DNA from: an uncultured Syntrophomonadaceae bacterium
GTDB lineage: Bacteria > Bacillota > Dethiobacteria > DTU022
Direction: 5' to 3'
DNA: 62,289 nt
Assembly: GCA_964463285.1 (NCBI GenBank)
Contig: CAYXBB010000001.1
Coordinates: 1-62,289 of the forward strand
The notes beneath the pieces were generated by a model, which was not told the origin of the DNA, searched no databases, and saw nothing but the letters and a program-made list of their open reading frames with translations. The translations under genes were made by a program, and so were the position numbers. Each line of letters starts with the position of its first letter. The stretch's first letter is position 1. Below are positions 38,199 to 47,806 of this stretch, piece after piece.

Positions 38199-39056
38199 TC
38201 AGATTCTCTCAGGGTTTTCCCCCGGCTCCTGGAGCTTTCGACGCAACATTTTAGTTAATTTGCCGGGCCGGCCGCTACCCACCGGGTATCCATTAAAATA
38301 AACCATGGGCATTATTCCCAGCAGAGAGTTGGTTAAAAAAGATTCCTCTGCTTTGCGGAAATCCAACGGATATATTTTTTCCTGGGCTACCGTTAATCCC
38401 AAGCGGTTTGCCGCCAACAGCACCCGGGCCCGCATTATCCCGGGCAGCAGCCCGCACTCCACCGGCGGGGTCAACAGCTTTCCTGCCATACTGAGGAAAA
38501 TATTGCTGGTCGTGCCCTCGGCTATTTCACCCCGATAGTTGCAGAAGATACCCTCGTCGGCTCCGGCAAGATCTGCTTCTTTCTTTCCCAAAATATTTTC
38601 CAGGCAGTTAATTGATTTAAATTTTACCAGCGGTGAAAGATGGCTGCGGGGAAAGCTAATCAGCTGAGATTTAAATCCCCGGTTATATAAATGTTCGGGA
38701 TACGGCTCTCCGGAATAACCCGTTATGACTGCGGTAGCGGCACCGCTCTGAACCGGAAGAAGTCCCCTTTTTATTGCCTTTCCCCTGGTCACCGTCAACC
38801 TCAACACTCCATTTTCAAGTCGCAAACAGGCTTCTCCCACACCCTTATCTACCTCTTCAGCCGGAAAAGAAATACCAAGCACTGCACATCCGTTACGAAT
38901 CCTTGCCAGGTGTTCTTTCCAATAAAGGGGGCGGCAGCAATCTACCCGGATTGTTTCAAATAACCCGTCTCCGTATAAAAAACCCCTATCCTGTACTTCC
39001 CAAGAAAGTTCCGGGGGATCTATGAATTTCCCGTTTATCCAGGCAATTACAGACAC
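38199..39056 (-). CDS. pabC: Class IV aminotransferase family; probable 4-amino-4-deoxychorismate lyase
   Basis: DRGFLYGDGLFETI, HLARI, KSINCLEN, EGTTSNIF, LLPGIMR; coupled to pabB. Confidence 0.75.
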   Translation of the reverse strand: MSVIAWINGKFIDPPELSWEVQDRGFLYGDGLFETIRVDCCRPLYWKEHLARIRNGCAVLGISFPAEEVDKGVGEACLRLENGVLRLTVTRGKAIKRGLLPVQSGAATAVITGYSGEPYPEHLYNRGFKSQLISFPRSHLSPLVKFKSINCLENILGKKEADLAGADEGIFCNYRGEIAEGTTSNIFLSMAGKLLTPPVECGLLPGIMRARVLLAANRLGLTVAQEKIYPLDFRKAEESFLTNSLLGIMPMVYFNGYPVGSGRPGKLTKMLRRKLQEPGENPERI

Positions 39057-40495
39057 ACTTTCACCTCCCCCTCATGACCCAGCGCTTTTAACAACGCCTG
39101 TGCCTTGGCTATGGTCTCCCGGTATTCTTCATCGGGCCGGGAGCTAAGAATAATCCCTCCTCCTACCTGCAAGTAAGCAGTTCCGGTTTTAACAATAATA
39201 GTTCTGATCACCACGTTTAAATCTACATTTCCGTCAAAGCCCAGATAGCCGATAGAGCCGGTGTAGATCCCTCTTTTTACCGGTTCAAGTTCCTCGATTA
39301 TTTCCATGGCCCGCTGCTTGGGATTTCCACTAATTGATCCTGCCGGAAAGCTTGCCTGTAGCAGGTCAATGATATCCTTACCTTCCGCCAGGCGACCCCG
39401 TACTGTGGATACCAGATGAAATACCGTGGGGTACTCTTCCAGGCGAAATCGCTCCTGCACCTTCACGCTGCTTTTGCTGCATACTTGCCGCAGTTCGTTA
39501 CGGACAAGACTGGTGATCATGTCCAGCTCGGCATGGTCTTTATCGCTTTGCAGCAGCTCAGCGCGCAGTCGCCGGTCTTCCCGGGCATCCTTTCCCCTGG
39601 GTCGGGTACCCTTGATGGGCCTGGTTTCCACATTTCGATCGGTAACTTTCATAAAACGTTCCGGTGAAGAACAAACGATATCCAGCTGAGGGTAATGTAG
39701 GTAGGCAGCAAAAGGAGCGGGGTTGATCTTGCGCAATCGCCGGTAGAGTTGCCAGGAATCTATTTGTAATTCACATGAAAAACGCTGGCTAAGGATCGCC
39801 TCCAGGATTTCCCCCTTGCTGATATAATCTTTTACCTGTTGAACCGCTGCGCAGTAAGTATCATAACTGAAATGCCCGCGGATCACCGGCATTTTCCCGG
39901 CTGTTTTTTTGCACCGATCATAAGTAAAATCTGAAAGATCTTCCTGCGGGCCGTATCCTTCACCGGTGTAGATATACCCTTCTAATTCCTGCAACCGCTC
40001 CCTGGCCCAAATATCAGCTTTTCCTCCCTGTTCCGGCAACCCCGTGGAGACAAGAAACATCTTGTTCTGCTGATGATCGCAAATTATCAGCCGGTCGTAA
40101 AAACCCAGGTAACAGTCCGGCAACCCCAGGTCATCCTGTGCTACCCGGGGTAGTTTTTCAATCTGCCGGCCCAGATCGTAAGCAAAATAGCCAAACGCAC
40201 CCGCCCCTGTAGGAAACCGGGGATCGCTTGGAGCACGGTATCTGGTTATTAGCTCACGCAAAATCTGAAAGGGATCACCTCTTTTTGTCTCCCGATTACC
40301 ATTTCTAAACAACTCCACCGTCTCGTCCTTGCATGTAAAGACCAGAAAGGGATCGCTTCCGATCATTGAATAACGCCCCAGGCGCTGGAGATCCATTCCG
40401 CTGTCCAGAAAAAAACTGTAGGGCCGTTTCCGGAAAGATTTAAATACCTCTGCCGGTTCCTGGCAAGATATTTCCTTGACAATCAAAATAAACAT
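39047..40495 (-). CDS. pabB: Aminodeoxychorismate synthase component I
   Basis: FFLDSG, NPAPFAAY, SSPERF, PIKGT (PabB-type Lys), FPAGSI, RGIYTGSIG; start reset to 40495. Confidence 0.88.
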   Translation of the reverse strand: MFILIVKEISCQEPAEVFKSFRKRPYSFFLDSGMDLQRLGRYSMIGSDPFLVFTCKDETVELFRNGNRETKRGDPFQILRELITRYRAPSDPRFPTGAGAFGYFAYDLGRQIEKLPRVAQDDLGLPDCYLGFYDRLIICDHQQNKMFLVSTGLPEQGGKADIWARERLQELEGYIYTGEGYGPQEDLSDFTYDRCKKTAGKMPVIRGHFSYDTYCAAVQQVKDYISKGEILEAILSQRFSCELQIDSWQLYRRLRKINPAPFAAYLHYPQLDIVCSSPERFMKVTDRNVETRPIKGTRPRGKDAREDRRLRAELLQSDKDHAELDMITSLVRNELRQVCSKSSVKVQERFRLEEYPTVFHLVSTVRGRLAEGKDIIDLLQASFPAGSISGNPKQRAMEIIEELEPVKRGIYTGSIGYLGFDGNVDLNVVIRTIIVKTGTAYLQVGGGIILSSRPDEEYRETIAKAQALLKALGHEGEVKVCL

Positions 40496-40513
40496 CCCCT
40501 TACACTGAATAAT

Positions 40514-40539
40514 AAAAAAACCAGTACCATGTACTGGTT
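40514..40539 (-). terminator. Intrinsic terminator in the pabB leader
   Basis: Minus strand AACCAGTAC-ATG-GTACTGGTT followed by a T tract, ending about 20 nt before the ATG. Confidence 0.8.
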
Positions 40540-40604
40540 CGCATCCCAGATATTCGCGTCTTAGAGGTTTAGTGCCGGGCACCGTTATTTAACTCTTGCT
40601 TTTT

Positions 40605-40670: not shown

Positions 40671-41420
40671 TTATATTCCGGTTCCCCCCATTTGCTCCCT
40701 TTTTAGGCCTGTCAGGCGATAAAGCCGGTCTACCTCAACACCGGTTAATCGCCGGTAGCGCCCTGTTTTTAATCCCTGAACATTTAGTTGGGCAAATTGC
40801 GTTCGTCGAAGTTTGATTACCGGGTGCCCGATGGCGGCACACATATTTTTTACCTGCCTCTTTCGCCCTTCATGAATTGTAATCTCCAGCCAGGAGCGCA
40901 AGGTTCCCTCCCGCTTTTTCAGCTTAATTTTCGCCGGGGCGGTAATATGGTCTTCCAATTTTACACCGTGGCGCAACTTCTGAATTTGCTCCCAGCCGGG
41001 AACCCCCTTCACCAGTACCCGGTATGTTTTGGAAATTTCAAACCGGGGGTGGGTTAACCGGTAGGCCAGTTCCCCATCGTTGGTCACCAGAAGCAGCCCT
41101 TCGCTATCCATATCCAGACGACCTACCGGATAGAGACGGGCCTCCAGGACCGGCGGAAGTAAATCCACCACCGTTTTACGACCGTGGGGATCGGTTACCG
41201 TAGAAAGGTAACCGGCAGGCTTATTTAGCATATAGTACATTTTGGCTTCCGGTTTAGACACCTTTACCCCGTCCACGGTAACTTCATCTGTAGGATTAAG
41301 CCGGGTAAAGGGTTTGGTTATCACGAGTCCGTTTATTTTTACCCTTTTCTCGGCAATAAGTTGTTCGGCTTTGCGACGGGAGGCTATCCCCGCCCGGGCA
41401 AGGAATTTGGTGATGCGCAT
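40671..41420 (-). CDS. rluB: 23S rRNA pseudouridine synthase, RluB/RsuA family
   Basis: S4 domain ASRRKAE, NKPAGYLST, YPVGRLDMDSEGLL, EGRKRQVK. Confidence 0.9.
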   Translation of the reverse strand: MRITKFLARAGIASRRKAEQLIAEKRVKINGLVITKPFTRLNPTDEVTVDGVKVSKPEAKMYYMLNKPAGYLSTVTDPHGRKTVVDLLPPVLEARLYPVGRLDMDSEGLLLVTNDGELAYRLTHPRFEISKTYRVLVKGVPGWEQIQKLRHGVKLEDHITAPAKIKLKKREGTLRSWLEITIHEGRKRQVKNMCAAIGHPVIKLRRTQFAQLNVQGLKTGRYRRLTGVEVDRLYRLTGLKREQMGGTGI

Positions 41421-41597: not shown

Positions 41598-42881
41598 TCA
41601 GGTGTTAAAAATCCCCAACAGGCCTTTTTTTCCCAGACGCAGCTTCAATTCATCGGGATCAATAGAGTAAAGCCTCTTCTGCTGCAGGTTTTTCCAGAGG
41701 GGACCACCGGAAAGAGTGTACATCTCTTGCCGGCCTTCCCGGGTGGAACCTAATTCCCGGGCATAGGCGATCAGTTCTCCGCAGGCGGTTTCCCTGGGTA
41801 GGGTTAACAATTTCCGCCCTTCGATTAAACACCAGGCATTGTAGCCGGCCAGGGTACCGGTAACCATGGCCTCCGTATGACCGACCATTAAACCTGCTCT
41901 TTCTCCGGCGGCAAACAGGTTTAAGAAAGGGGGTACCCTAAGGCCGGCTTGTACTTCAATGGAAGAGGTAAACCGGATAGAGTTACCCGTGCCTCCCCCC
42001 AGAGGGTCCCTGAACACTGCACCCTTAAATCCTTCCAGGCAGCGAAGCTTTTGCAAGTTGTAATAGGGGATCATGATTTTAATGGGCCCGGTATCCAACA
42101 AGATCAGGTTTTCTTCGAATTCCTGCAAAATATACTGCCGGCAGACTTTGGCCTTTAAAAGTGAGTGTCCCGGTTCCCCTGGGCGCAACTCCAGGGGAAC
42201 CGGGACACTCACCACTCCTTTTTCTCTTACCTCCGCCAGTAACCGCCCTTCCAGAGAACCGGGTTCCAATTCGCAGGAGCCGCTGAAAAATCCAGGCTGG
42301 AGGTCATCCCGGGTAATCATTTTCTCCCGGAGTCCTGCCTTGATGGCTATGCTGATCCGGGGTCCGAAGGTGGGGCAACGAAATACACACATACTGCAGC
42401 CGTTTCCGTACCTGCGACAGTTGGCCATGGGGCCCGCGGTGCCACTGGCATCAATAAAGACTTCTCCTTTTACCACGCTGCCGTCTGCCAGCCTCACTGC
42501 CGATATTCTTTTACCGGAAAGCTCCACTTCTACCGCTCTTAGTTCATGCAGGATCTCCACCTGCCATTGTTTAAGCAATGAAGTTACCGCCGGCTCCACT
42601 TTATCTATATCATACAGCCAGGCATGTCGATGCCCGGGAAAATTCAGGTTAACGTGTCGGGAGAGACAATCAGTAAGATCCACCAGCTCCCCGCTACCCA
42701 TCAGCCTGAGCTCTTCGGCGGCTGTAAACCGACCATTGTTACGCATAATCCCGCCTACCAGCCCCGAACCTAACAGGCGATCTGTCCTTTCAATCAAGGT
42801 TACCGACAGCCCTTTCTTGGCGGCTGCCAGCGCCGCCGAGCACCCGGCCCAACCGCCCCCAACTACTATCACTTCACCCAT
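41598..42881 (-). CDS. GidA/TrmFO-like FAD-dependent oxidoreductase with a Cys cluster; function unknown
   Basis: VIVVGGGWAGCSAA, DASGTAG, CRRYGNGCSMCVFRCP, FAAGERAG...GHTEAMVTG. Confidence 0.75.
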   Translation of the reverse strand: MGEVIVVGGGWAGCSAALAAAKKGLSVTLIERTDRLLGSGLVGGIMRNNGRFTAAEELRLMGSGELVDLTDCLSRHVNLNFPGHRHAWLYDIDKVEPAVTSLLKQWQVEILHELRAVEVELSGKRISAVRLADGSVVKGEVFIDASGTAGPMANCRRYGNGCSMCVFRCPTFGPRISIAIKAGLREKMITRDDLQPGFFSGSCELEPGSLEGRLLAEVREKGVVSVPVPLELRPGEPGHSLLKAKVCRQYILQEFEENLILLDTGPIKIMIPYYNLQKLRCLEGFKGAVFRDPLGGGTGNSIRFTSSIEVQAGLRVPPFLNLFAAGERAGLMVGHTEAMVTGTLAGYNAWCLIEGRKLLTLPRETACGELIAYARELGSTREGRQEMYTLSGGPLWKNLQQKRLYSIDPDELKLRLGKKGLLGIFNT

Positions 42882-42933
42882 TTGCAATCCCCCTGCCGGA
42901 AATTTTAACGGTAATGTTGATTTTTCACTGATG

Positions 42934-43470
42934 TCACCTGAATACTGCTGCGCAAATTATTGCAGAAGCAATGAACCCACAAAGATCACCGATCAACCCC
43001 GCCGCCGGGGCATGGCGAGATTTTTGAATCCCTACCGATCCAAAATATACAGTTAACACAAACAAGGTGGTATCGGTGCTCCCCTGCATGGTGGAGGCAA
43101 GCCTGCCCAAATATGAGTCCGGCCCGTCATGTTGAAGTATCTCGGCGGTAATGGCCAGGGCACCGCTCCCGGAAATAGGTCGCATAACCGCCAGCGGAAT
43201 AATTTCCGGGGGCAGGTGGAATTTCACCAGAAAAGGAGAGAGCATATTTATCAGGAGCTCCATGGCCCCGGAATCCCTAAGCAGCCCAATAGCCACCAGC
43301 ATCCCCACCAGGAAAGGTATCAATCGGACTGCCATCCCGAATCCCTCCCGGGCGCCCTCCACAAACACATCAAAAATATTAACCTTGTGATAAAGGGCAA
43401 AGAATATCACCACTGTGAGCAACGCTGGAATAACCCACTGGGATACCAAATTAACCAGTCCGGCAATCAT
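42934..43470 (-). CDS. spmB: Spore maturation protein B
   Basis: FVEGAREG, RPISGSGA, GSTDTTLFV; ATGA overlap with spmA. Confidence 0.93.
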   Translation of the reverse strand: MIAGLVNLVSQWVIPALLTVVIFFALYHKVNIFDVFVEGAREGFGMAVRLIPFLVGMLVAIGLLRDSGAMELLINMLSPFLVKFHLPPEIIPLAVMRPISGSGALAITAEILQHDGPDSYLGRLASTMQGSTDTTLFVLTVYFGSVGIQKSRHAPAAGLIGDLCGFIASAIICAAVFR

Positions 43471-44051
43471 CTGAATTTTCTCCACCGACGGAACAGACGA
43501 TCTGCCAGAAGCGCCATCAGACAAGAACAAGACGAGGCCAGCAGGGTGGTTCCCACTATCTCGGTAGGATTTAATGAACCCGTGGCCGCCCGTAAGCCGA
43601 TCACCGTGGTCGGAAGCAAACTTAAACTGGAGGTATTTATCGCTAAAAATGTGCACATTTCATCCGATGCCACCTCCGAATGCAGATTGAGAGCCTGCAT
43701 CTCTTCCATGGCCTTGATCCCAAAGGGGGTGGCGGCGTTGCCCATTCCCAGCAAATTGGCGCTCATATTCATCAATATAGCATTCATCGCGGGGTGATGG
43801 GGGGGAATGGCCGGAAAAAGCAGGCGGGCCAGGGGGCGAAGAAAAATTTTAATTACCTGTATAAGTCCGGAGCGTTCCACCAGCTTCATTATTCCCAACC
43901 AGAAAGTCATCACGCTGATCAGTCCGATAACCAGGCTTACCGCCTGCTCCGCCGCTGAAAAAATGCCGGGAGTAACTACCGAGATTTTTCCCGTCAGGCC
44001 GGCCACCAATATGCTTATACAGATCATTGCCGCCCAGAGATAGCCGACCAA
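43467..44051 (-). CDS. spmA: Spore maturation protein A
   Basis: FWLGIMKL, NMSANLLGMGNAATPFG, FLAINTSS. Confidence 0.95.
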   Translation of the reverse strand: MVGYLWAAMICISILVAGLTGKISVVTPGIFSAAEQAVSLVIGLISVMTFWLGIMKLVERSGLIQVIKIFLRPLARLLFPAIPPHHPAMNAILMNMSANLLGMGNAATPFGIKAMEEMQALNLHSEVASDEMCTFLAINTSSLSLLPTTVIGLRAATGSLNPTEIVGTTLLASSCSCLMALLADRLFRRWRKFR

Positions 44052-44088: not shown

Positions 44089-45216
44089 TTATAGCAGCAG
44101 GTGAACCTGCCGTATAAACCGTTCCCAGGCTGACAATCTCTTAACCTCTTGACCGGCATTTAGTTCCAGCCTCCCCAAAAAATAATCATCCAAATATATT
44201 TCCAACTCGCCCAGTTTCTCTCCGCAGCCAAGCGGAGAACAGTAACTACCGGCCAGTTTCCATTTATATTGCAGCCGTTCTTCTTCTCCTGGAAGCAGGG
44301 GCAGATGCAGATCCTTATTCACTACCACCGGAATATATTCTGGTTTTCCATCGACCACCGGAACCCGTGCCAAAATCTGCCCAGTTGAGAAAATTTTTTT
44401 CCTGGTATAAGTGCGGTAACCATAATCCAGAAGCATCATGACATCTTCCCACATCCGTGGTGCATCAAGAACCACTGCAACCAGCTGCCAGTTGTTTTTG
44501 GTGGCGGAGCCGGCAAGGCAGCGCCCGGCCTTTCTGGTCCATCCGGTTTTAATACCATCTGCTCCGGAATAAAGTTCAAGCAACCGGTTTTGATTGTTTA
44601 AAAACCGCCCTTCCGGGTTGCCCGGCCAGGTAATCACCCGGTGGTCGGTGGAAACGATATTCCGAAACGCCCGGTTATCCAAGGCCTGGCAGGAGATCAG
44701 GGCCAGATCGTAGGCATTGCTGTAATGTTGATCATCGGGAAGACCATGAGGATTTATAAAATGGGTGTTTCTTGCCCCCAGCTGCCTTGCTTTGCAGGTC
44801 ATCAGCAGAGCAAAATTTTCTTCCGTACCGGCCAGATGTTCGGCAATGGCTACCGCAGCATCGTTTCCAGAGCAAAGCATCAAACCGTAAAGCAGTTCCT
44901 CCAGGGTTTTCCTTTCTCCCTGCTCCAACCAGAGGGAGGAGCCTTCGGTGCCGGAGGCCTTTGAGCTAACTATCACCTCTTCCGATTGCTCGCCTAGCTC
45001 CAACGCCAGCAAAGCGGTCATAATTTTAGTTACACTGGCCATAGGCCGAGTCCGATGAGCATCTTTCTCCCATAGCACCCGCCGGGATTCCCGGTCTATG
45101 AGGATGGCAGATTCGGCGCTAATTTCAGTTTCCCAGGCCGGGGTTTTACAGGAGCCGGCCACCCCCAAGACTACCATTAAGAAGAAACAAACCGCACTGG
45201 TAATATATCTACTCAT
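44089..45216 (-). CDS. dacB: D-alanyl-D-alanine carboxypeptidase DacB
   Basis: MASVTK (SxxK), SGNDAA, IKTG; dacB-spmA-spmB synteny. Confidence 0.88.
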   Translation of the reverse strand: MSRYITSAVCFFLMVVLGVAGSCKTPAWETEISAESAILIDRESRRVLWEKDAHRTRPMASVTKIMTALLALELGEQSEEVIVSSKASGTEGSSLWLEQGERKTLEELLYGLMLCSGNDAAVAIAEHLAGTEENFALLMTCKARQLGARNTHFINPHGLPDDQHYSNAYDLALISCQALDNRAFRNIVSTDHRVITWPGNPEGRFLNNQNRLLELYSGADGIKTGWTRKAGRCLAGSATKNNWQLVAVVLDAPRMWEDVMMLLDYGYRTYTRKKIFSTGQILARVPVVDGKPEYIPVVVNKDLHLPLLPGEEERLQYKWKLAGSYCSPLGCGEKLGELEIYLDDYFLGRLELNAGQEVKRLSAWERFIRQVHLLL

Positions 45217-45363: not shown

Positions 45364-45789
45364 CTAGTAAGGTTGTTCGGCGGAGGCTCGCTCCCGTTTG
45401 AACATTCCCTGAATCTGGTTGATCAGCTGGGGAGCCAGATCAATCAGCCGGTCCAGCATGGCATGGTGATGTACCGGCAGCAACCGCACCTGGCCCTGGC
45501 CGACTACCAGGAAAGCAACCGGCTGTACGGATACTCCTCCCCCGCTGCCTCCGCCAAAAGGAAGTTCTTGACCTGAAGAATTTGGCGAGCGTGGGTTGCC
45601 GGCAGCTTCCTCCTGGTTTTCAAATTCAGTGCCTCCGGCAGCAAACCCGAAGGTTACCCGAGAGATGGGGATAATCACATTGCCGTCCGGTGTTTCCACC
45701 GCATCGCCTACAATTTTATTAACATCCACCATCTCTTTTAAATTTTCCATGGCTGTTTTCATCAATCCTTCAATGGGGTGATCTTCCAT
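45364..45789 (-). CDS. gerW: GerW (YtfJ) sporulation protein
   Basis: HPIEGLM, DVNKIVGD, GFAAGG, PFGGGSGGGVS. Confidence 0.93.
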   Translation of the reverse strand: MEDHPIEGLMKTAMENLKEMVDVNKIVGDAVETPDGNVIIPISRVTFGFAAGGTEFENQEEAAGNPRSPNSSGQELPFGGGSGGGVSVQPVAFLVVGQGQVRLLPVHHHAMLDRLIDLAPQLINQIQGMFKRERASAEQPY

Positions 45790-45791
45790 GT

Positions 45792-46325
45792 TCATGGCCT
45801 CCTGCCTTTTTTAAATAAAGACCACAATTTTATCCACAACCAGATGGGAGCGGCCAACTCACCCACCCAATCAACTTTTAAACCGGTGTTTTGAAAACCG
45901 GGATTAAGCCTGATTTCGGGCTTCCTTTCGAATCGAAAGCAGCGATACAACAAAGGGAGAACCGCCCCCCCTAACGCCCAGGCCCCCCCGGCAGCTATTC
46001 CGGTGAAAGCGGGGTCTTTTAGGCCAAAATCGATCCGCAGAATAAATTTTTTCCAGATCAGATGTTTCCGGTAAGGCCTGCTTATATTAATAATTTCCTT
46101 TAGCCGATGAAGATTTAGTCCCTGCTCCTGATCATTTTGGGTAGTCGGCATAAAGGGGATCTTCCAGCGCCCCAGGGCCAGATAAGCCTTAAATTGAGCG
46201 TTATTATTTTCCCTAAGGTAATGAATAAATATTCGCTGCGGTAGCAAGTAATAAACCCCCGCAAGAAACAACAGACCCGGCAACAGCCATAAGCCTAAGT
46301 ATAACACCCAATGCCCCCGGTCCAT
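45792..46325 (-). CDS. DUF2953 / YtfI-like protein
   Basis: FGLKDPAFTGIAAG; directly upstream of gerW. Confidence 0.75.
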   Translation of the reverse strand: MDRGHWVLYLGLWLLPGLLFLAGVYYLLPQRIFIHYLRENNNAQFKAYLALGRWKIPFMPTTQNDQEQGLNLHRLKEIINISRPYRKHLIWKKFILRIDFGLKDPAFTGIAAGGAWALGGAVLPLLYRCFRFERKPEIRLNPGFQNTGLKVDWVGELAAPIWLWIKLWSLFKKGRRP

Positions 46326-46530: not shown

Positions 46531-47040
46531 TCAGTCACCAAGGGGCGGCAGCTCTGAAAGATCATGGAGGGCGAAATATTTTAAAAACTCGGGAGAAGTG
46601 GAATAAATAAGCGGCCTGCCGGGCCCCGGTTTCCGCCCGCTAATCCGAATAAGCTTTCTCCGAAGCAGGTTATCCAACACATGGCCGCATTTTACCCCTC
46701 TGATTGATTCAATCTCTACCCGGATTACCGGTTGCCGGTAAGCGATAATCGCCAGGGTTTCCAGGGCGGCCCGGGAAAGATTGCCGGTGGTGTCATCGGC
46801 AAACAGTTTTTCCAGGTAAGAGGCCAGGTCCGGCAGGGTGCCCATCTGATAGCCCCCGGCAATTTCAAAAATCCTCAGTCCTCTCGACGAGGAGTCCAGT
46901 TCAGCTTTAAGTTCTTTGATTAGATTAACAATCTGTTCTCCAGGAAGAGGGATTATCCGGCTTAGCTGGCTAAGCTTAACCGGTTCCTCATACAAAAACA
47001 GCACGGCTTCAATCAGCGCTTTGGCTTTTACCGGATCCAT
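46531..47040 (-). CDS. scpB: SMC-Scp complex subunit ScpB
   Basis: IEAVLF, AGGYQM, LSRAALETLAIIAYRQP, GRPLIY. Confidence 0.95.
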   Translation of the reverse strand: MDPVKAKALIEAVLFLYEEPVKLSQLSRIIPLPGEQIVNLIKELKAELDSSSRGLRIFEIAGGYQMGTLPDLASYLEKLFADDTTGNLSRAALETLAIIAYRQPVIRVEIESIRGVKCGHVLDNLLRRKLIRISGRKPGPGRPLIYSTSPEFLKYFALHDLSELPPLGD

Positions 47041-47806
47041 AGCGGTCTTTCCTCCCATTGCGGCCAGTATACACCAGGATCGTTCCAAACAGGCGATCCT
47101 GAAACAAAATTACTTTCTGCCGGCGGGTCAGCTCCAACAGGGCGATAAGTGTATATATCAACTCTCCTTTTTCAGCAATGAGTGTTTTGAAGGTAACCGG
47201 TCCGCTCTGGTGGCGAAGCCGGCGCAATACCCCCGCAATCTTATCCCTTAAGGAATATCTTTCAGTAGGCAGATAGCCCTGAACCCGGGTGGCAGCCTGT
47301 TCCCGGTAGCGCTGCATAATTTCCTGAAGCGCCTGCGCTCCCTCCCAAAATGTATAGTAGGATTGCTGTTGACGGCTTGTCAGTAACATCTTTTTACCGC
47401 CGGTAGTTCGCAGGAACACCTTCTGCTGATCCGCTTCTTTTTCTTTTAGCCATCCGGCAACTTCCTTGAACCTGCGATATTCCTCCAGGCGGGCAAACAG
47501 CTCCTCCGGTGAGCTGAATTCAAATAACAGTTCCTCTCCTTCTTCTCCTTCCATATCCTCCCGAAGGGAAAACGGCAACAGCAGCTTCGATTTTAGGCGA
47601 AGCAGCGTGGCCGCCATCACCAAAAATTCGCTGGCCAGATCCAAATTGAGGGTTTTCATCGATTGCAGGTAGCTTAAGTACTGGTCGGTAATTTGGGCAA
47701 TGGAAACCGACCAGATGTCAACTTCCGCCTTGGTAATTAAATGAAAAAGGAGATCAAAGGGGCCTTCAAAATCCGGTAACCGGATGGTGCAGCTATACTG
47801 TTCCAT
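47009..47806 (-). CDS. scpA: Segregation and condensation protein ScpA
   Basis: FEGPFDLLFHLI, ITDQYL, EFLVMAATLL. Confidence 0.95.
   Translation of the reverse strand: MEQYSCTIRLPDFEGPFDLLFHLITKAEVDIWSVSIAQITDQYLSYLQSMKTLNLDLASEFLVMAATLLRLKSKLLLPFSLREDMEGEEGEELLFEFSSPEELFARLEEYRRFKEVAGWLKEKEADQQKVFLRTTGGKKMLLTSRQQQSYYTFWEGAQALQEIMQRYREQAATRVQGYLPTERYSLRDKIAGVLRRLRHQSGPVTFKTLIAEKGELIYTLIALLELTRRQKVILFQDRLFGTILVYTGRNGRKDRYGSGKSQSAD

What the first reader, a model, noticed from the sequence alone, without database searches (positions are those of the whole stretch)
41598..42881. GidA/TrmFO-like flavoprotein with a ferredoxin-like C-x6-C-x2-C-x3-CP insert next to rluB
Seen: an FAD-binding GGGWAG, GidA-like C-terminal FAAGE..G...GHTEA, and CRRYGNGCSMCVFRCP. 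It lies between spmB and the rRNA pseudouridine synthase. Known: MnmG and TrmFO are folate/FAD tRNA-modifying enzymes without such a Cys cluster. Inference: an uncharacterised Fe-S flavoenzyme, possibly a new RNA-modification activity or a sporulation redox enzyme transcribed from the sigma-E dacB promoter.
Basis: partly seen in the sequence, partly recalled or inferred. Interest (0 to 1): 0.55.

Follow-up and report, generated by a model that had tools for sequence, protein, structure and literature searches.

The report
Uncharacterised iron-sulfur GidA-type flavoprotein
This gene encodes a strongly conserved but unstudied flavoprotein, built like the tRNA-modifying enzymes MnmG and TrmFO and carrying an invariant four-cysteine loop that probably binds an iron-sulfur cluster; what it acts on is still unknown.

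Summary
Window 41598-42881 (-) encodes a 427-aa FAD protein between spmB and an rluB-type pseudouridine synthase. The C-x6-C-x2-C-x3-CP loop is present in 77 of 77 relatives. C249 (77/77) and C205 (75/77) are also conserved.

It is neither TrmFO nor MnmG: both equivalog models score far below cutoff, the genome has its own MnmG, and TrmFO shows no anticorrelation. MnmG (Z 27.6) and TrmFO (Z 25.9) are nevertheless its closest folds.

In the largest clade the gene is translationally coupled to a PyrK/NfnA-like FAD/NAD/[2Fe-2S] protein (PRK05802). That protein occurs only beside this flavoprotein (35 of 35 genomes). This argues the loop is an electron wire to the FAD. The window's Syntrophomonadaceae clade lacks the partner, so a ferredoxin-type donor is inferred.

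The family is found in 112 of 401 sampled genomes, almost all SpoIVA-positive.

I tested and did not support three roles: TrmFO substitute, alternative dipicolinate synthase, and MnmL/MnmC1 analogue. The substrate is unresolved between RNA uridine chemistry and a small molecule.

The scan has flagged this family several times on other DNA. No characterisation was found in the searched literature.

The parts
41598..42881 (-). Fe-S flavoprotein CDS (427 aa from ATG 42881; ORF open to TTG 42887)
   Evidence: Pfam GIDA PF01134 97 bits; AF2 model pLDDT 84, pTM 0.89
42889..42893 (-). GGGGG Shine-Dalgarno, 7 nt before the ATG
   Evidence: read from the sequence
42843..42860 (-). GGGWAG dinucleotide (FAD) binding motif, residues 10-15
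   Evidence: invariant G10 G11 G12 W13 G15 in A1
42372..42419 (-). C157-x6-C164-x2-C167-x3-C171-P172 loop, probable [4Fe-4S] site
   Evidence: 77/77 conserved; low pLDDT 150-175 as expected without the metal; replaces the MnmG segment before GTPPR; weak ferredoxin-motif look-alikes
42273..42275 (-). Cys205 codon (SGSC motif)
   Evidence: 75/77 conserved
42141..42143 (-). Cys249 codon (K-x-C-x-Q-Y), near the position of the MnmG 'GPRYCPSIE' catalytic Cys loop
   Evidence: 77/77 conserved; hhalign with this genome's own MnmG
41868..41882 (-). GHTEA, C-terminal FAD-closing motif shared with MnmG and TrmFO
   Evidence: invariant G336 H337 T338 E339 A340; aligned to TrmFO and MnmG
44089..45216 (-). 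dacB-like D-Ala-D-Ala carboxypeptidase, first gene of the likely transcription unit
   Evidence: PF00768 205 bits + PBP5_C
43467..44051 (-). spmA-like (Gate domain)
   Evidence: PF07670
42934..43470 (-). spmB-like (Gate domain); likely start at 43470 overlapping the spmA stop; the ORF itself is open to 43656
   Evidence: PF07670; ORF listing; the start is inferred
40671..41420 (-). rluB/rsuA-family rRNA pseudouridine synthase, 177 nt downstream
   Evidence: S4 + PseudoU_synth_2; TIGR00093 179 bits
40518..40540 (-). strong terminator-like hairpin (10 pairs + T-run) after rluB, likely end of the unit

Best explanation
The gene encodes a member of a discrete, uncharacterised family of about 425-aa FAD enzymes that descend from the MnmG/TrmFO (GidA) fold. 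In this family an invariant C-x6-C-x2-C-x3-CP loop, inserted between the FAD domain and the insertion domain, most likely binds a [4Fe-4S] cluster. I propose that the cluster is the electron wire to or from the flavin, making the enzyme independent of O2 and of direct NAD(P)H binding. In the largest clade the electrons come from a dedicated, translationally coupled PyrK/NfnA-like subunit: NAD(P)H to FAD to [2Fe-2S] to [4Fe-4S] to FAD. In the window's Syntrophomonadaceae clade that subunit is missing, so a soluble ferredoxin-type donor or acceptor is inferred. Chemistry then occurs at the flavin, probably assisted by the invariant Cys249 (and Cys205), which lies close to where MnmG and TrmFO place their catalytic cysteine. 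Shown here: the fold, the conservation, the partner linkage, and non-membership of TrmFO and MnmG. Inferred: cluster type, direction of electron flow, and the role of Cys249. Unresolved: the substrate. My odds for the window's protein are RNA uridine chemistry about 35-40%, a small-molecule C=C or C-N redox reaction about 35-40%, and other about 25%. It is probably expressed with the dacB-spmAB sporulation genes.
For: Fold: MnmG Z 27.6 (361 residues aligned) and TrmFO Z 25.9, against 20.6 or less for all other flavoproteins; Foldseek top hits are MnmG with TMq 0.70; Pfam GIDA 97 bits. Cys loop 77/77, C249 77/77, C205 75/77. Partner: PRK05802 at 400 bits, directly upstream on the same strand in 44 of 77 loci, about 20 of them with a 4-nt overlap. 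In 401 genomes PRK05802 occurs in 35, all flavoprotein-positive and always adjacent. The partner label needs one change on the tree. The partner has an 8-Cys N-terminus and a C-terminal CCGEGVCGGC...C 2Fe-2S-type motif. The insert's only PDB look-alikes are 4Fe-4S ferredoxin motifs. The family is discrete: 193 representatives at E<=1e-30; more than 6300 hits named only 'FAD-dependent oxidoreductase'. Local unit: 52-nt gap to spmB, no terminator until after rluB.
Against: No metal or cofactor was measured. Four Cys in 15 residues could bind Zn or a [2Fe-2S] cluster, or could be structural as in endonuclease III (recalled from memory, not tested). No model coordinates were available, so cluster-flavin and Cys249-flavin distances could not be checked. 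The window's own genome lacks the partner (best E 0.68), so the strongest argument for an electron-relay role is borrowed from another clade. Context evidence on the substrate is contradictory: rluB, GNAT and an MnmM-like methylase in some loci, against PLP, RidA, B12 and GntR genes in others.
Confidence: 0.5

Rival explanations
1. It is an RNA-modifying enzyme like every characterised GidA-fold protein. It would act on a uridine in tRNA or rRNA, with the Fe-S cluster supplying electrons anaerobically. Candidate reactions are dihydrouridine or m5D formation at orphan clostridial rRNA sites, or oxidative cmnm5U to nm5U demodification.
For: The closest folds are MnmG and TrmFO by a clear margin. 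rluB is immediately downstream on the same strand in 15 of 73 loci, with gaps of 19-177 nt. A GNAT and a PF06962 MnmM-like methylase follow in up to 13 loci. The family is basic, median pI 8.2. The window's 1.7-Mb genome keeps the gene although it lacks c1 and the PLP/B12 cluster. The genome has MnmG and MnmM but neither MnmL nor MnmC1. MnmC1 is O2-dependent and other enzymes are not excluded. Clostridial rRNA D/m5D sites are reported in C. sporogenes and C. acetobutylicum (PMC11317573).
Against: The dacB...rluB synteny exists in Bacillus without this gene (from memory), so adjacency may be inherited. MnmL is present in 31 of 111 flavoprotein-positive against 23 of 49 negative genomes, and whole families carry both, so there is no complementary pattern. 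TrmFO's folate-site H-R-N aligns to a variable stretch. MnmG's first catalytic Cys is Gly/Ser here. Paralogues sit in metabolic-looking clusters.
Confidence: 0.3
2. It is a small-molecule oxidoreductase of anaerobic amino-compound metabolism, for example an amine/imine or enoate redox step. The RNA-enzyme fold would be only ancestry.
For: In two-copy genomes both paralogues are embedded in one co-directional cluster. Its order is DUF6917 (in some loci also a Rid-family gene), a SelA/DgaE-like PLP enzyme, flavoprotein-a, a GntR/FCD regulator, a B12-binding protein, a KamB-type reactivase (248 bits over cutoff), a P5C-reductase-like protein, c1, then flavoprotein-b (c33 = Rid family). Dedicated PyrK-like subunits are typical of small-molecule enzymes such as DHODH-B, Nfn and sulfide dehydrogenase (established knowledge). 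Distribution is patchy, 28% of genomes, with up to three copies.
Against: The window's genome has neither the PLP enzyme nor the KamB-like protein, nor c1, yet keeps the flavoprotein. The PLP-linked genes form their own clade, distinct from the window's. That cluster also lies between dacB and rluB, so it could be an insertion into the ancestral site.
Confidence: 0.3
3. It has a sporulation-specific redox role in the mother cell, co-expressed with dacB-spmA-spmB. This concerns its physiological setting and could hold together with either biochemical reading above.
For: Same strand, 52 nt after spmB, no terminator. dacB lies within four genes upstream in 28 loci, often with ytfJ and DUF2953. 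109 of 112 flavoprotein-positive genomes have SpoIVA, against 3 of 75 SpoIVA-negative genomes carrying the flavoprotein.
Against: 217 SpoIVA-positive genomes lack it, so it is not core. The association is not corrected for phylogeny. The specific idea of an alternative dipicolinate synthase fails here, because dpaA and dpaB are present and adjacent. The sigma-E promoter is only a consensus-level match.
Confidence: 0.2
4. The Cys loop is a structural metal site (Zn, or a non-redox Fe-S cluster), and the flavin is reduced directly by NAD(P)H as in MnmG and TrmFO.
For: 77 of 112 flavoprotein-positive genomes lack the PyrK-like partner. Compact four-Cys loops can be structural (from memory: endonuclease III, C-x6-C-x2-C-x5-C).
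Against: A dedicated electron-transfer subunit co-evolved with the family. The C-x2-C-x3-CP ending is typical of redox ferredoxin sites.
Confidence: 0.12

Closest known systems
MnmG (GidA), tRNA U34 cmnm5 synthesis enzyme
   Same: FAD domain plus insertion domain fold (Z 27.6, 361 residues aligned). Pfam GIDA match. Shared GGG-x-AG, 'GG-x-M-x-RN' and G-x-x-EA motifs, and 347 columns aligned to this genome's own MnmG at 97% probability.
   Different: It has no C-terminal MnmE-binding domain (427 aa; aligns to MnmG residues 4-459). TIGR00136 scores 33 against a cutoff of 525. MnmG's first catalytic Cys is replaced. A Cys-rich loop replaces the MnmG segment before GTPPR. A true MnmG is encoded elsewhere in the genome.
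TrmFO / RlmFO, folate- and FAD-dependent m5U methyltransferases
   Same: Similar size (about 430 aa) and fold (Z 25.9). The C-terminal FAD-closing region aligns at 96% probability.
   Different: TIGR00137 scores 40 against 429 and NF003739 scores 43 against 262. The H-R-N folate site is not conserved. TrmFO has no Cys cluster. TrmFO co-occurs with this family in 85% of carriers against 87% overall.
Two-subunit PyrK/NfnA-partnered Fe-S flavoenzymes (DHODH class 1B PyrK-PyrD, NfnAB/sulfide dehydrogenase, dihydropyrimidine dehydrogenase)
   Same: In the largest clade the logic is the same: an NAD(P)H-binding FAD/[2Fe-2S] subunit is translationally coupled to a catalytic flavoprotein carrying a Cys-cluster.
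   Different: The catalytic subunit has a GidA fold, not a TIM-barrel or GltD type. The partner has an extra 8-Cys N-terminus. The window's own clade lacks the partner.
RdsA (YhiN), FAD/NADH-dependent 23S rRNA dihydrouridine synthase
   Same: A non-Dus FAD enzyme of the wider two-dinucleotide-binding-domain flavoprotein class that acts on rRNA uridine (PMC11317573). HI0933-family structures appear among weaker fold hits (3v76 and 2i0z; 4cnj Z 18.7).
   Different: A different family (PF03486). The match here is confined to the N-terminal Rossmann motif, 22 bits against a cutoff of 50. No Fe-S loop is reported for RdsA.

Membership tests
TrmFO | Scores above the curated equivalog cutoff (TIGR00137 / NF003739) | tested here: not met
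   40.5 against 428.65 bits; 43.3 against 262 bits
TrmFO | Folate-site H-x-N motif (MHRNTF) next to the flavin | tested here: not met
   hhalign puts HRN opposite a variable stretch of the family; the window has SSIEVQ. Caveat: this is a low-identity alignment.
TrmFO | Catalytic Cys pair (ELVC-SNS and EGC-MPIE) | tested here: inconclusive
   The N-terminal region was not aligned by hhalign. Invariant C249 lies near the second loop by the MnmG alignment, but not at the same column.
TrmFO | Fills the TrmFO role (should be anticorrelated with TrmFO) | tested here: not met
   TrmFO is present in 95 of 112 carriers against 349 of 401 overall
MnmG | Scores above the TIGR00136 cutoff | tested here: not met
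   32.8 against 524.85 bits; the genome's true MnmG scores 799
MnmG | C-terminal helical MnmE-binding domain | tested here: not met
   427 aa; aligns only to MnmG residues 4-459, or 50-457 of the 676-aa own MnmG
MnmG | Conserved catalytic Cys in the 'CNP' motif | tested here: not met
   The corresponding stretch is 'LLGSG'; the column carries no Cys
GidA superfamily (PF01134 fold) | GIDA-type FAD domain plus insertion domain | tested here: met
   PF01134 97 bits against a cutoff of 22.1; Z 27.6 and 25.9 to MnmG and TrmFO
PyrK-partnered two-subunit Fe-S flavoenzyme | Adjacent PyrK/NfnA-like FAD/NAD/[2Fe-2S] subunit | tested here: not met
   Not met for the window: no PRK05802 homologue in the genome (best E 0.68). 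Met in the c1 clade: 44 of 77 loci and 35 of 35 genomes.
[4Fe-4S] ferredoxin-type site | Four conserved Cys ending in C-x3-C-P | tested here: met
   77/77 conserved. The first spacing is x6 rather than the canonical x2. Weak PsaC-type matches.
[4Fe-4S] ferredoxin-type site | Actually binds an Fe-S cluster | not testable with these tools
   Needs metal analysis, EPR or a structure
Sigma-E (mother-cell) dacB operon | Transcribed from a sigma-E promoter with dacB-spmAB | tested here: inconclusive
   Co-oriented with 37- and 52-nt gaps and no terminator. There is only a 9/12 sigma-70-type consensus match upstream of dacB, and no sigma-E model was available.

The most novel reading that the evidence does not exclude
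The family is a new, O2-independent, Fe-S-wired class of RNA uridine-modifying flavoenzyme. Candidate reactions are the dihydrouridine or 5-methyl-dihydrouridine marks reported in clostridial rRNA, or an anaerobic cmnm5U to nm5U step. It would be fed by ferredoxin or by a dedicated PyrK-like reductase, and expressed with sporulation genes.
Probability: 0.3. Interest if true: 0.8.

Novelty: new variant of a known kind. Interest (0 to 1): 0.55.

Why it matters
All characterised GidA-fold enzymes (MnmG, TrmFO, RlmFO) are folate- and FAD-dependent RNA uridine modifiers that take hydride directly from NAD(P)H. A third, equally conserved branch with an invariant Fe-S-type loop and its own reductase subunit would extend the chemistry of this fold, whatever its substrate. 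The family is large (thousands of sequences), 76-100% identical among the closest Clostridium relatives of the C. tetani protein, present in pathogens such as C. tetani and in industrial clostridia, and has no assigned function. It is also a concrete candidate for several open questions: the enzymes behind the dihydrouridine marks reported in clostridial rRNA, alternative anaerobic routes in xnm5U synthesis, and unexplained members of the dacB-spmAB sporulation locus.

Tried and rejected
1. TrmFO substitute. The genome lacks TrmFO, but across 401 genomes TrmFO is as common in carriers (85%) as overall (87%). Rejected.

2. Alternative dipicolinate synthase. dpaA and dpaB are present and adjacent. 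Not supported.

3. Anaerobic analogue of MnmC1/MnmL. This looked attractive because the genome has MnmG and MnmM but no MnmL or MnmC1. However, MnmL occurs in 28% of carriers against 47% of non-carriers, whole families carry both, and many have neither. Only a weak negative association, so not supported but not excluded.

4. Tsac_1705 'NADH-FNOR' as a characterised member of the partner family. It is a true PyrK in the pyrimidine operon. Dead lead.

5. pI as an RNA-binding indicator. Uninformative: family median 8.2, TrmFO 5.7-5.9, MnmG 9.1.

6. ESM Atlas returned only 'putative FAD-dependent oxidoreductase' clusters.

7. Literature searches for PRK05802 and for GidA-, MnmG- or TrmFO-like paralogues with Fe-S found nothing relevant.

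8. Presence in C. sporogenes or C. acetobutylicum could not be settled. The best 120 hits to the C. tetani protein stop at 76% identity and include neither species.

9. In-frame stops flagged in some genome hits lie within open frames of about 430 aa. I took them as match ends running past the natural stop and did not follow them up.

Full report
**Observation**

The window carries an ORF at 41598..42887 on the minus strand. Its most plausible start is the ATG at 42881, preceded by GGGGG seven nucleotides upstream. The quoted motifs GGGWAG, FAAGE..GHTEA and CRRYGNGCSMCVFRCP are all present.

On the same strand upstream lie DUF2953 and YtfJ sporulation proteins, an S11 D-Ala-D-Ala carboxypeptidase (dacB-like) and two Gate-domain proteins (spmA/spmB-like). 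Downstream lie an S4/PseudoU_synth_2 pseudouridine synthase of the RsuA/RluB group, then pabB- and pabC-like genes.

The gap from spmB to the flavoprotein is 52 nt with no terminator-like site. The gap to rluB is 177 nt, AT-rich, with a hairpin that lacks a T-run. The first strong terminator-like hairpin on this strand is at 40540-40518, just after rluB. A dacB-spmA-spmB-flavoprotein(-rluB) transcription unit is therefore plausible but not shown.

**What family it is**

Pfam assigns the GIDA domain at 97 bits. The curated TrmFO and MnmG equivalog models are missed by an order of magnitude: 40 against 429, 43 against 262 and 33 against 525 bits.

An AlphaFold2 model built on 20 homologues is confident (pLDDT 84, pTM 0.89) except for residues 150-175, the Cys-rich insert. 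A search of about 48,000 PDB representatives puts E. coli MnmG (Z 27.6, 361 residues) and T. thermophilus TrmFO (Z 25.9) clearly above every other flavoprotein class, which score 20.6 or less. Foldseek agrees.

Profile-profile alignment with this genome's own MnmG covers 347 columns at 97% probability. It shows four things:
- The protein stops where MnmG's MnmE-binding domain begins.
- The Cys loop replaces the MnmG segment before 'GTPPR'.
- MnmG's first catalytic Cys is not conserved.
- The invariant K-x-C249-x-Q-Y lies a few residues after the position of MnmG's 'GPRYCPSIE' loop.

Against TrmFO only the C-terminal FAD-closing part aligns, and TrmFO's folate-contacting H-R-N falls opposite a variable stretch. 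The genome encodes a canonical MnmG (799 bits) and no TrmFO. In 401 genomes of the phylum, TrmFO is as frequent in carriers of this family (95 of 112) as overall (349 of 401). The protein is thus a third branch of the GidA fold, neither a TrmFO nor a replacement for one.

**Conservation**

More than 6300 database clusters match, all about 425 aa and named at most 'FAD-dependent oxidoreductase'. In a 1.84-billion-protein representative library the family is discrete, with 193 representatives at E<=1e-30. Within Clostridium the best 120 clusters matching the C. tetani protein are 76-100% identical to it.

In 77 full-length homologues from named genomes, the C-x6-C-x2-C-x3-CP motif is present in all 77, C249 in 77 and C205 in 75. 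The alignment of 20 diverse members also shows invariant GGIMRNN-R, FPGH-HA-LY and GHTEA blocks. The insert alone has no significant PDB match. However, nearly all of its weak matches are 4Fe-4S ferredoxin motifs, for example PsaC 'GCTQCVRACPT'.

**The partner**

I clustered the ORFs of 78 fetched loci. The commonest neighbour is a 327-aa protein directly upstream on the same strand, present in 44 of 77 loci and overlapping the flavoprotein start by 4 nt in about 20. It has no Pfam hit. It is NCBIfam PRK05802, a 'sulfide/dihydroorotate dehydrogenase-like FAD/NAD-binding protein' (400 bits against a cutoff of 313), with an extra eight-Cys N-terminus and a 2Fe-2S-type C-terminal motif.

In the 401-genome sample PRK05802 occurs in 35 genomes. 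All 35 carry the flavoprotein, and in every case the two genes are adjacent. 77 carriers lack it. On a tree of the family the partner-linked genes form one well-supported clade (SH-aLRT 99). The window's protein sits in a separate Syntrophomonadaceae clade that follows spmB (support 100). A third, partner-less clade (support 96) contains genes preceded by a SelA/DgaE-like PLP enzyme, with DUF6917 and/or RidA-family genes further upstream.

The window's genome has no PRK05802 homologue. The dedicated reductase subunit is the best evidence that the Cys loop is an electron relay, but for the window this argument is by homology.

**Distribution and context**

The family occurs in 112 of 401 sampled genomes (79 of 271 genera). 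All but three carriers, which are fragmented MAGs, have SpoIVA. Only 3 of 75 SpoIVA-negative genomes carry the family, while 217 SpoIVA-positive genomes lack it. This is an association with endospore-forming lineages, uncorrected for phylogeny, and not a core sporulation gene.

dacB lies upstream in 28 loci. rluB is immediately downstream on the same strand in 15 of 73 loci (gaps 19-177 nt), sometimes followed by a GNAT and a PF06962 (MnmM-like) methylase. In 29 of 73 loci the downstream gene is on the opposite strand. The dacB...rluB order is known from Bacillus without this gene (my own knowledge), so adjacency to rluB may be inherited rather than functional.

In genomes with two copies, both copies lie in one co-directional cluster. 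Its order is DUF6917, PLP enzyme, copy a, GntR/FCD regulator, B12-binding protein, KamB-type reactivase, P5C-reductase-like protein, PRK05802, copy b, rluB, GNAT. This looks like small-molecule amino-compound metabolism. The window's genome has neither the PLP enzyme nor the KamB-like protein with these queries.

**Specific functional hypotheses tested**

- Alternative dipicolinate synthase: the genome has adjacent dpaA and dpaB, so this is not supported.
- O2-independent counterpart of MnmC1/MnmL for cmnm5U to nm5U: the genome has MnmG and MnmM but neither MnmL nor MnmC1. Recent work shows MnmC1 needs O2 and leaves room for unknown enzymes. But MnmL is present in 31 of 111 carriers against 23 of 49 non-carriers, several families carry both, and many have neither. 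That is no complementary pattern.
- An rRNA dihydrouridine or m5D role: suggested by marks reported in clostridial rRNA. I could not test it, because presence in C. sporogenes and C. acetobutylicum could not be established.

**Verdict**

The best-supported mechanism is an Fe-S-wired FAD enzyme of the GidA fold. Electrons would pass through a [4Fe-4S]-type loop from a dedicated PyrK-like reductase in most lineages, and presumably from ferredoxin in the window's lineage. Chemistry would occur at the flavin with help from Cys249. The substrate remains open between RNA uridine chemistry and a small molecule, and expression is probably tied to the dacB-spmAB sporulation genes. First-stage readers of this scan flagged the same module on other genomes several times. 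Those notes agree with what I found but were untested.

Noticed in passing
window 38199-40582 (-): pabB-like (chorismate-binding, 511-aa ORF) and pabC-like class IV aminotransferase genes follow rluB. The pabB ORF as listed begins upstream of the strong terminator-like hairpin at 40540-40518, so its true start is probably later.
   Followed up: partly
G000 whole genome: This 1.7-Mb Syntrophomonadaceae-like genome, and 4 of 5 sampled members of its family, lack TrmFO, although 87% of the phylum sample has it. It also has MnmG and MnmM without MnmL or MnmC1.
   Followed up: partly
L090:178-11188, L091, L092 (other genomes): A conserved supercluster: DUF6917, SelA/DgaE-like PLP enzyme (no Pfam hit), flavoprotein-a, GntR/FCD, small ORF, 605-aa B12-binding-domain protein, KamB-type reactivase, P5C-reductase-like protein, PRK05802, flavoprotein-b, rluB, GNAT. 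It looks like an undescribed B12/PLP amino-compound pathway.
   Followed up: partly
L091:3699-4187 (+): A 162-aa ORF right after flavoprotein-a matches only the N-terminal 125 positions of PRK05802 (Cys-rich part). It is either a truncated or a stand-alone Cys-rich module.
   Followed up: no
window 45364-46325 (-) and 46531-47806 (-): YtfJ and DUF2953 (ytfI-like) sporulation genes and scpA/scpB-sized genes lie upstream of dacB. The same order recurs in about 20 fetched loci, so this is a deeply conserved sporulation and segregation neighbourhood.
   Followed up: partly
genome hits (e.g. G014, G175, G136, G281, G081, G097): Several flavoprotein matches are flagged with one in-frame TAA or TAG although the open frame is about 430 aa. 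They are probably match ends running past the natural stop, but an earlier scan note mentions an 'interrupted' copy in another genome.
   Followed up: no
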